Assembly: GCA_012026655.1 (NCBI GenBank)
Contig: JAAILG010001467.1
Location: 1-64,000 of the forward strand
Reading direction: 5' to 3'
Length of the DNA stretch: 64,000 bases
Source of the DNA: Hydrolagus affinis
Taxonomy: Eukaryota
Shown in pieces: positions 8,760-64,000 of this stretch; positions within the stretch are counted from its first letter, which is position 1; every line of letters starts with the position of its first letter. The position numbers were made by a program, and so were the translations under genes. Below the pieces are notes generated by a model that ran no database searches, was not told where the DNA came from, and saw nothing but the letters and a program-made list of their open reading frames with translations.

Positions 8760-8945
8760 TTACTCATGTAGTAGCTCTTGCAGGCAGTTTGGAGATTTGA
8801 AAACGTCTGGGACTTCGCTGTCCAGCTTGCAAATGACCTTGTAGATGGCCTTCTTCCAGGAAGGATCAACGTCTTTGCCTGCAACAATGGCATTGAAAAA
8901 CTCCCGTAATGTGATCTGAGCCACTTCCAAGAACCTCTCCGGAAC
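8760..8945 (-). CDS. PROX1: Prospero homeobox protein, last coding exon (prospero domain C-terminus and TAA)
   Basis: Translation is VPERFLEVAQITLREFFNAIVAGKDVDPSWKKAIYKVICKLDSEVPDVFKSPNCLQELLHE*, ending with the PROX1-type C-terminus LQELLHE. Acceptor tctttctgtatcagcag. Confidence 0.95.
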   Translation of the reverse strand, partial: VPERFLEVAQITLREFFNAIVAGKDVDPSWKKAIYKVICKLDSEVPDVFKSPNCLQELLHE

Positions 8946-9847
8946 CTGCTGATACAGAAAGAGAGAATGACATTAGTAGTTTTCTATTTCACTCCGGAGT
9001 CTCCTATTCATTAAAAAGGGGAGGGGAAAAAGGTCTGCGCTTTCAGCAACTTCCTCCCCTCCCCCCACACGTCACTGTAAAGCACTTGTGCACCCAGCCA
9101 CCAAGTGTAGCAAAGTTAGCAATTTCCAATATATTCCAGGAAGGCTATTTCTAGAAAGATGAGCTAGGTGTTTTTGGTTTCTTTTAATTTCAGCAGCAAT
9201 TCTGGTCTACCCAGCTTCAAACATTAAAAGTTCTGTGAAAAAGATATACATTTTTTATGGGTGGGGTGGGTGGGAATGAAAGCAGTTTTTCCCAGCTATA
9301 AAAGGGAACATTTTCCAAGTTTAACTTCAATATTTTGGAGCAACCCCAGCATTTAGTTGAGGAGACACATGGATTCTTACATAGGCATGCACCAGTGCTT
9401 GGGACACTCACAGCACAACCATTTTCAAAAGGAACCAGGGGCTAAATGCAGTTGCTTTGGGTGTGTTAAATGGCCACTAATGTGCCCGTGTGCATCACAG
9501 AGCCTCGAGGCATCATTCTAACTTATTGGATTTGGTGACATAAAGCAATACTTTGTGATGAATATTAATGTTCTTATTTAATGGACTTACAGCATATTTA
9601 CATTAGTACATGTTGCAGGAATGGAAATGGCTTGAGATAATGTACCATGGTTGCTGCCTAAATTAGTGTTCACCTGCTTCCCAGATAATTGTGCATTCAG
9701 TGTCTTACACGATAAGGTATTAACTGGATGCTTAATGAACCCGAGTCACTTTGATTTCACTTTTTAAAGATGACATGCCAATTCAGAGTATTCGACCGCT
9801 ACCCATCACAGAATGGCATGTGCTTCCAGGATTCTGTGGCCCACACT

Positions 9848-48160: not shown

Positions 48161-48355
48161 CTCAAAATCATTTGCTTTGTTGTAGTGCATGTTCAAGGCT
48201 CTGTAGAGCTCGGAATCGCGAGAGACAGTCAGCTCCTCTGTGCTTGTTACGCCATCATTAATGGACTGACGAGCAAACTTCTCCATCTGGATGTAGTAAA
48301 ATTCTCGGAAATTGCTGAACCACTTGATAAGCTGCGAAGTGATGCATCTATTAAA
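48161..48355 (-). CDS. PROX1: Prospero homeobox protein, coding exon homologous to PROX1 exon 4
   Basis: Translation is [65 protein letters not shown] (195 bp). Acceptor tttcttgttgctag and donor GTACGG; phase 0 at both ends. Confidence 0.95.
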
Positions 48356-57230: not shown

Positions 57231-57338
57231 CTTCACGTCGGAGAAGAACATCTTCAGCATGTTGGAACTAGGGTACCGGGTGTAGAAGAACATTAGTTTG
57301 GCCTTTTTCAGGTGAGTGGGCGACAGACCTTCCTGAAT
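57231..57338 (-). CDS. PROX1: Prospero homeobox protein, coding exon homologous to human PROX1 exon 3 (start of homeodomain)
   Basis: Minus-strand translation is [36 protein letters not shown] (108 bp, phase 0), matching the PROX1 homeodomain start. Donor GTAAGA begins at 57230. The acceptor is U12-type: TCCTTGAC branch point, then AC. PROX1 versus a close paralog such as prox3 cannot be settled without synteny. Confidence 0.93.
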
Positions 57339-57363
57339 GTGAGATGCTGTTCGTCAAGGAAAA
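57339..57363 (-). promoter_or_regulatory. U12-type intron 3' end: branch point TTTTCCTTGAC and AC acceptor
   Basis: The minus strand reads TTTTCCTTGACgaacagcatctcAC|ATTCAGGAA. TCCTTRAC is the U12 branch consensus (57360-57353), the branch A lies about 15 nt from the exon, and there is no polypyrimidine tract. Use of the AC gives a 108-bp exon. Confidence 0.88.
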
Positions 57364-60300
57364 CATATAAAGCAATCATGGCAAACAACGCTGCAATAGG
57401 AAGGAGGGAGGAACGGTGGGGGACAGACCTGCAGAGCAAACCCTTAGTAACCAGGCGAATGAGTGAACAAACCGAAAAGAACATCAGCTGCCAAAATTCA
57501 ACGATCGTCCAATCTGTGATTATTTCACATTTGACTTTATCTGACAAAAGTTTTTTAAAAATATTTTTAAAACAGCAAGTGTACAATGATAGATAAGGCG
57601 AAAAAATAATGCCAGAAGCAATGGTTTGCGTTCTTCACACAAAGTTTACTGTTTGATCCCTATGGTTATTGTTGAAACAGCACCAAACATAGCAGCTGTT
57701 CAACACCCTCGTCCACAACTAAAAGCAAATTACTCAACAGTAGCTCATTTTCTTTGCAATGGAGAAGTTGCAAATCTGCACTGATATTTAACAGGTTGGT
57801 GTGTGCTGCAAAATAAGTTCACGGACAATGAGGCTATTATTCTAATGTTAACAATTAAACATCCTGACTCATAACGTAGGACATTGTATGCATGGACACA
57901 TTATACTGGGAGGTCACTAGGTAGATCTGCAGACTCCTGACCTAGCAAGGATACTGAACTAAAGATATCAAAGGTTAGATTTCTGACAGTCAAAAAGTCC
58001 CTAAGGGCCATCTGATCAATAAATTATTTCTTACACTGATAAAGAATCCCATTTATCTGCAAATATTATTACCCTTCAGCATTGTAGACAGAAGCTTCCG
58101 AAAATAGTTCCCAAGAGAAAGTTTAATGTGACACTAACCGTAACAATCTAGCAATTCTGATTTTCATTCAGTATCCCGAGCACTCTTTTGTGTGTTGTGC
58201 TTTCGTACGGATTTGGCACATCTGTGCTGCAGATCGCCCCACCATTTCCTCCACAAATTAATGGCTTTATAATTTATCAGAAATGAAGATGCATGTGGAG
58301 AAAATCAATACAGGCTCCACAAGGTCAATTAAGGGGTCCTTTACAGAAGTCATTCTAAACTCAGTCCTTTGAAGAGTGCTTTTTAAAGTAGCAAAAATGC
58401 TGTTCGTTCCGAGGGTTTCCTAAGTCATCATACAAGGACCTACACATTTATATCAGAAATGAAACTATTGGAAAAGAGGCTTTATCTGAGTGAGCAAACT
58501 GTTTAGCAACTCGATCAAGCTGGTCCTTTGTGCTCTGGAAGCTTAATGATGGCAAAGATGATAACTCATGATTGACATGCTTCTTGTACCAAGAGGGAAG
58601 AGTTGAAAAACCTTCTGTGACCTCCATTAGTCTGATAGGGAAGACCAAAAGAGCATTACACTCTCCACTGCCATCTGTCATAATGCATAAGTGAAATAAC
58701 GATGGCAAATGAAAGGAAGTGCAGCAAGCTGTTCTGTAGTGCCTTGTGAAGTGCAGAGTATTAAAAGAATCAGTGCCTGCTTGCATTTTACGGACTTTAG
58801 TAGCAAACTAGGAACAAAACAAGCAGAATCTTCAAACATTTTAAAGATCTGCATTAAATACTCCACAGTGGAAAAATGCAGATGAGATAGGATTTAACCT
58901 CAATGGGATTTTAATTCTATTCAGAGATGCATCATCTTAGAATCTACTAGTCAATTTCAGGTCAAAAATCATAAATTTAAAAGCTTGTTAAGAAATTCAA
59001 TAGTACAAATGACTTTGGAAACCACTTGTAAACATATAAGAGCAAAGCTGAAATAACAACATTAAGATATAATTATGAAAACCCCGAAAAGTTTCATTGT
59101 AAACTTTACAATAATCCTTAAAGATCCAGTACAAGTATAGAATCTTATTAAAACTGATGAGGGACTCAAAACCATGCCTTTAATATAGAATATTTAGCAT
59201 TAGAAAGCCATTTTTATGTATTCACCTAATGCCTCTTTCATTTTACAATGGAAATGCAACACTGGTTAACACACTATCCACTTAACTGAATCACTTCTTG
59301 TAGTATGAGAATTTGTAAATTGGCATCTCTTTCCCAGAATATCTCCTTTGAATTAAAAGTGCGAGACTTATTCATTCAAATGATTTTCATTTGTGCCATC
59401 AGCGCTGCCCTTTGGCTAACCTACCGATTTGCACACTCTCCCAGGTGACCACGCATTGAAGAGTAATAACTTGCCCCACCCACTTCGCAAAAACACGCAC
59501 AAAGTTGCCAGAGTAGAATTATATTTCTGATTCCAACGTTTAAAAAAAATTGTTACACCAGGCCACGTAAATTTCCTGTTCTAAAACAAACACTTTGGAA
59601 AGTGGGACAATAGTTCAAATAAATTTTATTTTTTCTAAAAAACTGAAAGCATAACTCGTCACTTTTGCTGAAAAGTAATTTAATTGTTAATCCAATATTT
59701 GAATAATTATTTCAGATATGCCAAAATAATAAAATCCCACAAGATTCGGCAAGTTACATGAAGCGACCTCACAGAATTGCATCTGTTGTGCCAGAGGCAC
59801 TTTGGCAAACATAAGATAATATCATATTTATCGTGTAGAAACCTCCAAAGGCAAAACACAAAAATATGAAGCTAGCAAGGTGTTAACTGTAAAACTACTG
59901 GATCTTTTCCCCATTAAAAAAATCAGGCCAAAGGTGTACTATACTTTAAAATCATTACTGCTTGTCTCTTAACTTAGTAACTGTGTAACATCCAGAAAGT
60001 ATGGGTAAATATATTCAGTTAGCATCACTTTAATGCTGCAATGTACCAACATGAAATCTTGCACAGTAAAAAGCAAAATAGAAAACAATTAAAATTTAAC
60101 TTCTTGAAACAATAAATATCCAAATCAGGCCAAGATTATGCACAATGCACAATTATTTTTTCGGCATCAGCAAAGACAAACCTAATATCGGAATTCAAAT
60201 CATACAAAAACTATTGATAGAGTGGTTATAATTTTAGAACTAAAAATGTTTATTCATCCAAGAGATTTAGAATACAGTATTGGTAAAGTTGTCACTTTAA

Positions 60301-60846
60301 CCTGTTTGAAATTGTAACATTGTACATTTTTTAATAATAATTTATTTCCAATACATGCAGATTTTCAGTGGGTAATTTGTATTGCAATTCATTTCAGGAT
60401 CATTATTTTGTATCTAAACTCCATTCAATTGTTTGGGATATTCAAGCTTGGCTTTTGCCACATTTGTGTGAAGCTGTCGTAACACAAGTAATTTATCATT
60501 GATTAGGTTTAGTAAATTTAACTTCTAAATTAAAAAAAAGTGAGTTACACCAGCTCTGACATGTTTATTTGTTGACTAATTACTTTGGTTGACATAAGTC
60601 AATATAAACTAGGTGACTATATTAGGCGACAGCTTGTTTTAATTTCTGTTCAGGTTATGAGCACTCACGGGAATGACGGATGACAGTGGAAGCTGAAAAC
60701 TGAACGTCATGTCGCTCTGCTTTCAGCAGAATAATACAGCACAAACTTCATCCTTCACAAAAAAATTGGGAAATCTCCTAAATTAGGTAAAAGTTCAGGA
60801 GTACATTTCACCAAATTTTCTGAACATTTCTACTGAAAATATGTAC

Positions 60847-61407
60847 AAAATATTGTGCCAGGATTTTTTTTTTAACATGCAAAAATTATGAGCGGTGCAA
60901 AATCCACAAAATTATATTTTCTACTGAAAATATGTACAAACTCCACATTTGTGAAATGAGTGATTGCCGTCTACAAATTACTGCATCTAGATGCTTTCAA
61001 ATAAAGAAGGCACAGACACAGTAGAGGAGCAGACACAAATTGCTCAGTGGATCTTTGTCACCAGCGTGGTCTGGTTACAAAGGTGACAAAAAGTGCAGAA
61101 GTAATCACAATATTCTTCCTCCACTTCATCCATTATTCAGAACATAAACAGGTTGAAGACAATAATCCTTCAAGTCTTCAAGTTGGGAAGCTTTGCACAA
61201 TAATAATACTGCGCAAACATCATTTAGCGTTACAGCTAAGGTTTTCACAATGCCGTCATTGGCAGAATTGGAAAATAGGTTTAAACTACATCCTTCCTTG
61301 TGCTAATAAATCTTGACGACTCTCATTATGTACACTCATTTAGTTTTGTGGACTTTGCACCACTCATAATTTTTGCACATTTAAAAAAAATCCTGGCACA
61401 ATATTTT
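60847..61407. repeat. Inverted repeat with ~65-bp arms (60847-60911 and 61344-61407)
   Basis: aaaatattgtgccaggattttttttttaacatgcaaaaattatgagcggtgcaaaatccacaaaa versus the reverse complement of the right arm, aaaatattgtgccaggattttttttaaatgtgcaaaaattatgagtggtgcaaagtccacaaaa. Confidence 0.9.
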
Positions 61408-64000
61408 CATCAGTGTCAATTTACCCCAGTTCTTTGAGGGCACAAAATAATGCAAAAAAAATGGTCTAGTCTGAAACTGTACTGTGGGTGGCTTATTTCT
61501 GGAGAAAGTCCGATTGCACGATAATTTAAAATATTTATATTGTGGAGCAAAGCACTTCAGATCAAATCTTAAACAACATGGTCTTGTATCACCACAAATG
61601 TTTTGCCTACATCTATACATATATATATATATATATAGATATATATACTGTCAATTTACTTTACAGTATATTTTGTGAAGCGCTTTGAGACTTCTAGAAG
61701 ACATGAAAAGCTCTATATCAAATGCAAGTATTATTATAATATAATAAACAACAATTATCATTGCATTAAAGACATTGCTAATTGCCCACAAAAAAACAGG
61801 CCCTACAATTGTAAATTTGTTGAACACAGCTCAGCAATTTCCCTTCATAATTCTTGGTGGAAGGAAGAAAAAGCCAACCAACATCTAGATCATACCACAT
61901 TGAAAACAAGCATTTTATATTCTTATTGATAGTAAATGTGAAGTATGTGACTAATGCATTGGTTCGCGTTTGATCAAGATTAAGGAGATATTTTTGTATT
62001 GTAAAAATGCACAAAAAAAGGTCTAACCTCTGGGACAGACCTATTTTAGGACAGACCTATGAATAGTCTTCATAAAATAAAGAGTGAAATAAATATACTG
62101 TAATAAATGAAGTTTTTTTTAATGTTTCATAGAGGCTTTAAAATGCATTTGACAATCTTTATTGTTCTACATTCAGTCACCATGAAGGTAAACTTTAATT
62201 ATAGAGCAACCAAAATCAACACAAAAATGTGTTCACTGCATTAAGGTGGGTGCCCAAAGCAAGGCTTATAATTCATATTCTTAGGCATGATGCTTTGTGT
62301 AATTGACAAGAAAATATCCTAAAAGTACAGCACATAAATAGATATCCATGGTTTGCCAAATAAAGCAAAACTGACCAATTGGTCAATCTCCCTTTTAAGT
62401 GCTTATGCTCAAAGCAACTGTTCTTCCAAGAAAGCGTTAGCTGTTTCTAGGATACTTACACACGCACAATGACTCATGTTGGAATAGATTTGGTAAACAT
62501 ACAGCTGCACAGAATGCAAGTGCAGCCCATTCAAAGCCAGAAGAAACGAGCACAAATAAATATTAAGGAGGTAAGAAAACGTACAGCTCTGTCCCAGCAG
62601 CTCATGTGGCTCACCTCATTCTCTCCACTTCAGCTTTGTTAAGACAGATGACATTCAATTCTACATGTCATGCAAAATAGACAATAACTGTTGAAACTTG
62701 AGCCAGCTGCCAGGTGTAAAAAAAGAAAAGATGATAAATCCATAAATTAATGAAAGACATCTGCTCAGGAAAATAAAAGATCAGAGAAATACTGCACTGC
62801 AGCTGAACCTAAAGCAGTGTTCAAACACCCCGCGTTTGTGTATAGTCTGCATATGGACTTTCCTTTTTTTAAAAAAAGGCAAATATGCAGCGCTACCTGA
62901 GAGGCAGATAAAAGTCGATGTGTCTTTTAGTGTAGTACAACATGGAATCCAACAATCAGACCAGAAACTGAACCAATGCCACAACTGGGCTATTAAATAT
63001 GTTTCTTAATACAGTACGCTACATATGAGAAATGATAGAATTATATATATGTATATTTTTTAAAATAGCAAACTAAATGTTAACTTTTATTTAGACACGT
63101 GTTTTACAATCCCTACTTGTAAATCCATTCTTCCCAATAGAGAACCAGCATTGAAATGCATCCAATCAAAAAGCTTTAAATAATGAAAATCATCATTTTT
63201 AAATGGCAGTCCTGGTTTTTGCCTTTTGTGCTACTTTAAAGATGTGTCTAATGTAACTAATTATATATAATACAAGCGCATAATCAAACAATATTATAAA
63301 CTGACTGAAGTTCCAGTGGTTTTTGGCCCATCCCCATTTACTATTTATCCCATCTCAAGTTCCCATCCCTGAAATGGCATCTTAGTCTCTGTGGATCCAT
63401 AGAGATTCACTGTTCAGATAGCTCAGCATTGTATAATACTATAGCTCTGTTCCAATTTGCTGCATGCAAATATTTTTGGTTTCGTACAAGGCCATTTTCT
63501 TGAGAATGCAAAGAGGGTGCGTGACATGGAAGATCATGCCTGTAATCTTGAAAACAATTGTTCAACTGTTTTCTTTATAATTTGAATAAAACTTGTGTCT
63601 GATTAATATGATTTTCATTCACAACACTATGGAGCATATCCATGGTGAAATGTAAATTTGTAAGCTGAGGTGCACCTTTATACAAGTCCACGTTTCACTT
63701 TTATCCACCCCTTCTCCTTCGATTGTATTGAAGACTGACTCCTTTACATAACAGAAAACAGTGTAATATCTGTTGCTTGTTGTGTTGGAGGACAATACAA
63801 TTACTGGAGTGAAAGGAAGCTGAGTGATCTGCTGAATTAACAATTGATTGAAAACACCCATCTCTGAAAAATCTTACTCTATATAGACAGATTAAAAAAT
63901 ATTGGGGGCAATTAATAAACCAGATCAGTTTATGATAAACCTAACTGTGAATTTTGTTACCCGTGAAATATGTTAAATAGCTATTAAATTAAGAAATGGC

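What the first reader, a model, noticed from the sequence alone, without database searches (positions are those of the whole stretch)
57325..57365. Minor-spliceosome AC acceptor with a nested in-frame CAG at the start of the homeodomain (possible twintron-like switch)
Seen: the minus strand reads TTTTCCTTGAC-gaacagcatctc-AC|ATT CAG|GAA GGT, a strong U12 branch point with an AC acceptor and a CAG exactly 6 nt downstream in the same frame. Known: Drosophila prospero has a U12 AT-AC/U2 GT-AG twintron that alters the homeodomain N-terminus, and vertebrate PROX1 is reported to keep a U12 intron at this position. Inference: this is an AT-AC intron at least 6.6 kb long. The CAG could be an alternative acceptor that removes Ile-Gln, or could pair with a U2 donor. 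Gene predictors limited to GT-AG introns would mis-annotate this exon start.
Basis: partly seen in the sequence, partly recalled or inferred. Interest (0 to 1): 0.72.

Follow-up and report, generated by a model that had tools for sequence, protein, structure and literature searches.

The report
PROX1 minor intron, three-way acceptor
This is the chimaera-type copy of the already known minor-spliceosome (AT-AC) intron of PROX1; the nested CAG is likely just a glutamine codon rather than a switch in this gene, though a sister gene that changed its donor to GT likely splices there, and a relative's RNA holds a junction that likely comes from a circular RNA using a third acceptor 8 bases upstream.

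Summary
The motif is exactly as described. The donor lies just beyond the window (ACA|ATATCCTTT, contig 64649): a 7,311-nt, phase-0 AT-AC intron in PROX1a, the known U12 intron of PROX1/prospero; the scan noted the same intron in another genome's prospero. A regulated switch to the +6 CAG is not supported: the CAG is a Gln codon 20 nt from the branch sequence, 0 of 177 PROX1-type junctions lack Ile/Met-Gln, a relative's spliced RNA contig breaks at 57338 and not at 57332, and neither of 2 raw reads there ends at 57332 (thin data). Two things go beyond the known intron. (1) A third PROX gene in this genome has a GTATCCTT donor and a branch site 11 nt before CAG|GAT: an AT-AC to GT-AG switch onto the Gln-codon AG, losing two residues (exons on separate contigs, paired by elimination); annotated carpet-shark PROX2 fits the same pattern. 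(2) One relative's run holds a contig joining exon 4's donor to an AG 8 nt upstream of the AC, likely a 311-nt exon 3-4 circle using a U2 acceptor nested in the U12 one.

The parts
57353..57363 (-). U12 branch-point sequence TTTTCCTTGAC, branch A likely 57354
   Evidence: rarity; same element in both paralogs
57339..57340 (-). AC acceptor of the AT-AC intron, 14 nt after the branch sequence
   Evidence: spliced contig of run X3 starts at 57338; 4 of 4 C. milii isoforms read ST-IQE
57333..57335 (-). CAG = Gln codon at +4..+6 of exon 3; latent acceptor, no sign of use in this gene
   Evidence: equivalent AG is the likely acceptor of the third paralog
57347..57349 (-). CAG 8 nt upstream of the exon; acceptor of the exon 4 to exon 3 back-splice junction seen in a relative's RNA (first base 57346)
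   Evidence: record 2 (30+8+30 nt)
57349..57390 (-). 42-nt AG-free zone with U2-type branch candidates (A at 57376 and 57368) and a 76% pyrimidine run that overlaps the U12 branch sequence
   Evidence: function inferred
57231..57338 (-). PROX1a exon 3 (108 nt, IQEG...DVK), start of the homeo-prospero domain; ends at a GTAAGA donor
57339..64000 (-). U12 AT-AC intron 2, 7,311 nt; it runs on past the window to its donor ATATCCTTT at contig 64649-64641 (contig numbering continues the window's); a U2-like donor TAG|GTAAGA lies 49 nt inside it at contig 64600, behind an in-frame TAA at intron bases 13-15, use untested
48161..48355 (-). PROX1a exon 4 (195 nt); its GT donor is the donor of the back-splice junction
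8762..8948 (-). PROX1a last coding exon, CAGCAG tandem acceptor (8948 / 8945)
   Evidence: EQV/EV isoform pairs

Best explanation
This is the 3' end of the 7,311-nt AT-AC intron 2 of PROX1a, likely removed by the minor spliceosome at the AC, with the CAG six bases on being a glutamine codon that is likely a latent rather than a regulated acceptor. Shown: donor, branch sequence, AC, reading frame. Inferred from established U12 biology: U11/U12 pair with ATATCCTTT and TCCTTGAC, and the AC is chosen by its distance from the branch site and by the A at the 5' end. Inferred from paralogs: when the donor's first base changes from A to G, the Gln-codon AG offers an in-frame acceptor at the cost of two residues that lie before the domain; the third PROX gene of this genome likely took that route. 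Seen once in a relative's RNA, mechanism inferred: the U2 donor of exon 4 cannot pair with the AC, so back-splicing uses the first AG of an overlapping U2-type acceptor, 8 nt upstream, giving a 311-nt circle.
For: Donor and frame. Orthology: 99% to C. milii PROX1a over residues 430-572, identical over exons 3-4. Known intron: Lin 2010 Table 2, Olthof 2019 supplement. AC use: X3 contig of exactly exon 3 + exon 4 (303 nt) starting at 57338 with no break at 57332; 2 X8 reads over the site end between 57335 and 57339; 177 canonical against 0 minus-two PROX1 junctions. Spacing 14 nt (AC) against 20 nt (CAG), optimum 11-13, AT-AG disfavoured (Turunen review passages). Paralog 2: ATATCCTTT with AC|ATT CAG. 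Paralog 3: GTATCCTT (PROX exon 2) with branch site + 11 nt ending CAG|GAT. Back-splice.
Against: RNA evidence is thin and from other coded organisms: 2 contigs in 1 of 3 contig runs laid and 3 raw reads; contigs drop rare forms, so minor use of the +6 CAG is not excluded. The exon 2-exon 3 joint itself was not seen in reads. Annotated proteins are not independent, and only up to 15 members of 30 clusters were listed. AT-AG U12 introns exist (20 listed by Sheth 2006), and a paddlefish paralog is annotated with both forms. Paralog 3's donor and acceptor are on different contigs. Spiny-rayed fish PROX1a entries read as GT donor with IQ kept, so the shift is not obligatory.
Confidence: 0.82

Rival explanations
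1. Regulated dual acceptor: the minor spliceosome alternates between the AC and the +6 CAG (AT-AG), removing Ile-Gln.
For: CAG in frame in all three paralogs; U12 3' choice is error-prone; paddlefish paralog X1/X2 differ by these two residues; pig PROX2 is annotated both ways by different sources.
Against: 0 of 177 PROX1-type junctions; no contig break and no read end at 57332; 20-nt spacing and AT-AG both disfavoured; the residues lie outside the domain model.
Confidence: 0.08
2. Prospero-like twintron: a U2 intron from TAG|GTAAGA (+49) to the -8 AG is nested in the U12 intron; its product keeps 57 nt, in frame but with a stop, so it would be decayed or give a PROX1 without DNA-binding domain.
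For: Strong donor, 0.006-0.02 expected in 60 nt, a post-hoc figure; the -8 AG is joined to a U2 donor in run X3; nested layout as in prospero and SRSF10.
Confidence: 0.1
3. The exon 4 to -8 junction is no circle but a reverse-transcription template switch at the shared AG, a linear exon repeat, or an assembly artefact.
For: One contig in one run, depth 5 against 19; both sides share AG; X8's 3 reads do not show it.
Against: Both ends fall exactly on a used GT donor and on the first AG after an AG-free pyrimidine tract, and the two contigs close a ring of 303 + 8 nt.
Confidence: 0.3

Closest known systems
AT-AC U12 intron 2 of human/mouse PROX1 and PROX2 (Lin 2010 PMC2831892 Table 2; Olthof 2019 PMC6717393 supplements)
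   Same: Same position, phase 0, ATATCCTTT donor, TTTTCCTTRAC branch site, similar length (6,904 human, 6,998 mouse, 7,311 here).
   Different: Nothing essential; here a U2-like donor sits at +49 and an AG at -8.
Drosophila prospero twintron (as described in Janice 2013 PMC3564746 and Akinyi & Frilander 2021 PMC8329584)
   Same: Orthologous AT-AC intron before the homeodomain; U2-type sites lie inside both ends.
   Different: The fly's nested GT-AG intron gives a protein 29 residues longer and is regulated; here the nested pair would include a stop and its use is not shown.
U12 subtype switch AT-AC to GT-AG (Burge 1998 as cited in Lin 2010; Sheth 2006 PMC1557818)
   Same: Paralog 3 is a GT-AG U12 intron at the site where its sisters are AT-AC.
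   Different: The passages read propose point changes at fixed borders through AT-AG; here the acceptor likely moved onto an exonic codon with loss of two residues.
Human circPROX1, hsa_circ_0111952 (PMC10779679) and U12 circles at unannotated sites (Szabo 2015 PMC4506483)
   Same: Circle ending at the exon 4 donor; use of an unannotated site beside a U12 intron.
   Different: The human circle spans exons 2-4 (2,095 nt); Szabo's start from U12 donors. Here a U2 donor joins an AG inside the U12 acceptor, exons 3-4 only.

Membership tests
U12-type AT-AC intron | 5' site ATATCCTT | tested here: met
   ACA|ATATCCTTTTC at contig 64649
U12-type AT-AC intron | Branch sequence TTCCTTRAC close to the 3' end | tested here: met
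   14 nt before the end of the AC, just over the 11-13 optimum
U12-type AT-AC intron | Splicing at AT..AC restores the conserved frame | tested here: met
   734-aa protein matching C. milii PROX1a; RNA contig starts at 57338
U12-type AT-AC intron | Dependence on U11/U12/U6atac | not testable with these tools
   needs knock-down; inferred from motifs and orthology
Twintron (U2 and U12 introns alternatively removed at one site) | Both sets of signals present | tested here: met
   +49 TAG|GTAAGA and -8 CAG with U2 branch candidates
Twintron (U2 and U12 introns alternatively removed at one site) | Linear transcripts from both pathways | tested here: inconclusive
Tandem alternative acceptor (AC / +6 CAG) | Junctions at both acceptors | tested here: not met
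   0 at 57332; 0 of 177 proteins; low depth
Exonic circular RNA | Back-splice junction on a canonical donor and acceptor | tested here: met
   exon 4 GT to -8 AG, one contig, run X3
Exonic circular RNA | Covalently closed (RNase R resistant), reproducible | not testable with these tools
   seen in 1 of 4 runs laid; 2 of them laid nothing
PROX1a ortholog | Nearest to named PROX1a proteins | tested here: met

The most novel reading that the evidence does not exclude
The PROX minor-intron acceptor is a three-way site: AC for the minor spliceosome, an overlapping AG at -8 that lets the major spliceosome back-splice exon 4 into an exon 3-4 circle, and a Gln-codon AG at +6 that has repeatedly allowed AT-AC to GT-AG switching in PROX paralogs after one donor change, at the price of two residues. 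This would be a concrete route around the two-mutation barrier of subtype switching and an example of circle formation across spliceosome types.
Probability: 0.4. Interest if true: 0.62.

Novelty: new member of a known kind. Interest (0 to 1): 0.4.

Why it matters
The intron itself is textbook. The side results speak to two open points: how AT-AC introns become GT-AG, the supposed first step to losing minor status, and how an exon bounded by a minor acceptor and a major donor can circularise. Three paralogs in one genome, two AT-AC and one GT-AG at the same site, make a ready minigene test. Practically, pipelines often mis-join this exon, so PROX junction variants in databases should not be read as isoforms without reads.

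Tried and rejected
No holder of the exon 2 sequence is on record as RNA (no RNA holder listed); X3 is taken as RNA because its contig is spliced. X1 and X7 laid nothing (no evidence either way). The 767-aa C. milii isoform looked like a 30-residue insert from the AG at -90, but the extra length is N-terminal: rejected. Mouse Prox1 cryptic 5' and 3' events in Olthof 2019 have a mis-splicing index of 1 in every tissue scored, like many other rows; I read this as aligner misplacement of the junction, not as support for a switch. +2-residue forms annotated in frogs and some sharks (FY, LY, IY, SY) could not be judged without DNA. Two searches with teleost proteins missed paralog 3's exon 2, as did a lungfish one; a paddlefish one found it at E 0.0046. 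The tree does not place paralog 3. No close relative of paralog 3 was found (best 77%). Scamborova 2004 and Dietrich 2001/2005 were not held; the Janice 2013 supplements could not be read and may bear on PROX1. Searches that did not show the exon 3-4 circle or the acceptor-shift route in print: (listings, plus passages where cited); subscription papers and circRNA databases were not searched.

Full report
Observation. The window is the start of contig C1467, which runs to 66,718. The extra 2.7 kb holds the 572-codon first coding exon, which ends GGA AGT ACA followed by ATATCCTTTTC. The intron is 7,311 nt, AT-AC, phase 0. The four coding exons translate to 734 residues. The nearest named protein is Callorhinchus milii PROX1a, 99% over the region searched and identical over exons 3-4, so the genome is likely a chimaera (inference).

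What is known. Lin 2010 lists prospero as a twintron in the fly and PROX1 as U12 in human (passages). Olthof 2019 gives GCA|ATATCCTTT for human and mouse PROX1, with introns of 6,904 and 6,998 nt (supplement rows). PROX1 is not among the 18 human twintrons of Janice 2013 (first of three parts of the text read). Read-through entries show the donor's ISF translation in 30 and VSF in 7 of 350 proteins held.

Is the +6 CAG a switch? It is the Gln codon; 244 of 267 proteins with the exon 3 motif have IQE, MQE or SQE there, and CAG is 32 of 50 Gln codons in this gene. It lies 20 nt after the branch sequence, the AC 14 nt; the review by Turunen gives 11-13 nt as optimal and AT-AG as disfavoured (passages). 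Among 350 proteins, 177 have the canonical PROX1 junction and none the form without Ile/Met-Gln; all 4 C. milii isoforms keep it. Four runs were laid on the acceptor: X1 and X7 gave nothing; X3 gave a 303-nt contig equal to exon 3 plus exon 4, starting in register at 57338 and unbroken at 57332; X8 gave 3 reads, and the depth table allows the two at the acceptor to end only between 57335 and 57339, best fit 57336 and 57338. What the partly laid read joins to was not printed. These data are thin, from other coded organisms, and contigs drop rare forms. Ile-Gln precede the first position of the Pfam domain, and the fly structures match only from residue 5 of the exon, so their loss would likely be mild.

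The CAG as a latent acceptor. The genome has three PROX genes. The second has ATATCCTTT and TTTCCTTAAC + 11 nt ending AC|ATT CAG. The third has TTTTCCTTGAC + CCCCCCCACAG|GAT GGT, with no AC six bases before GAT, and a PROX-type exon 2 ending PFTGAA|GTATCCTTC. Donor and acceptor are on separate contigs and are paired by elimination. The simplest reading is a GT-AG U12 intron whose AG is the old Gln codon, with two residues lost; a point change plus a separate small deletion would give the same end state. In annotated proteins, 4 of 5 carpet-shark PROX2-type entries with a scorable joint lack the two residues and the whale-shark read-through is VSF, while horn shark reads ISF. Echidna PROX2 and a group of teleost prox2-like entries also lack them; their donors are unknown. 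Pig PROX2 reads VSF and is annotated both ways; a paddlefish paralog has both isoforms. VSF only suggests a GT donor. Lin 2010 and Sheth 2006 describe subtype switching, Sheth through AT-AG intermediates (passages); Larue 2023 calls intron sliding very rare (passages). I did not find the acceptor-shift route in those passages.

X3's second contig is 68 nt at depth 5: the last 30 nt of exon 4, the 8 intron bases before the exon, and the first 30 nt of exon 3. With the 303-nt contig it closes a 311-nt ring. The joint falls on exon 4's GT donor and the CAG at 57349-57347. That AG is only 7 nt from the U12 branch A, but it is the first AG after a 42-nt AG-free stretch with U2-type branch candidates 21 and 29 nt upstream and a 76% pyrimidine run that includes the U12 branch sequence. 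I infer a U2 acceptor overlapping the U12 one, used because a U2 donor does not pair with the AC. Both flanking introns are long, and a 100-nt repeat in intron 2 has 4 inverted copies among 11 matches in intron 4, weak support. Human circPROX1 spans exons 2-4 (passages). The junction rests on one contig in one run of a relative; template switching or a linear repeat is not excluded.

Twintron. A strong U2-like donor lies 49 nt inside the intron. Joined to the -8 AG it would keep 57 nt, in frame, but with TAA as fifth codon, so the product would be decayed or lack the DNA-binding domain, unlike the fly's longer protein. Nothing here shows that it is made.

Verdict. A known U12 intron in a new species; the proposed switch is not supported in this gene; two testable side results, one from DNA of this genome and one from a single RNA run, lift the interest to moderate.

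Noticed in passing
window 8945-8951 (-): Last coding exon has a CAGCAG tandem acceptor; EQV/EV isoform pairs are annotated in chimaera, sharks, gar, zebrafish and mammals. This, not the AT-AC site, is the widely annotated alternative acceptor of PROX1.
   Followed up: partly
L025:1769 (G000:C85156) and L003:920 (G000:C113537): Third, fast-evolving, GC-rich PROX gene with no close database relative (best 77% over exon 4); GT-AG U12 intron; paralog group unresolved.
   Followed up: partly
contig 64600 (L004:600, -): Strong U2-like donor 49 nt inside the U12 donor, behind an in-frame stop.
   Followed up: partly
window 57391 and 57429 (-): Two further CAG sites at -52 (after a long pyrimidine run) and -90 from the exon start; no sign of use in the runs laid.
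   Followed up: partly
proteins P0025-P0030, P0003-P0005, P0056-P0057: Frog and some shark PROX1 entries carry two extra residues at this junction, in frogs as separate isoforms; may be an upstream acceptor at -6 or an aligner error.
   Followed up: no
window 8949-48160: Intron 4 is about 39 kb, with several repeat fragments, some in inverted orientation to copies in intron 3.
   Followed up: no
window about 60840-61360: Inverted copies of a short stretch near 60.85 kb and 61.4 kb in intron 2, seen by eye; possibly a small DNA-element remnant.
   Followed up: no
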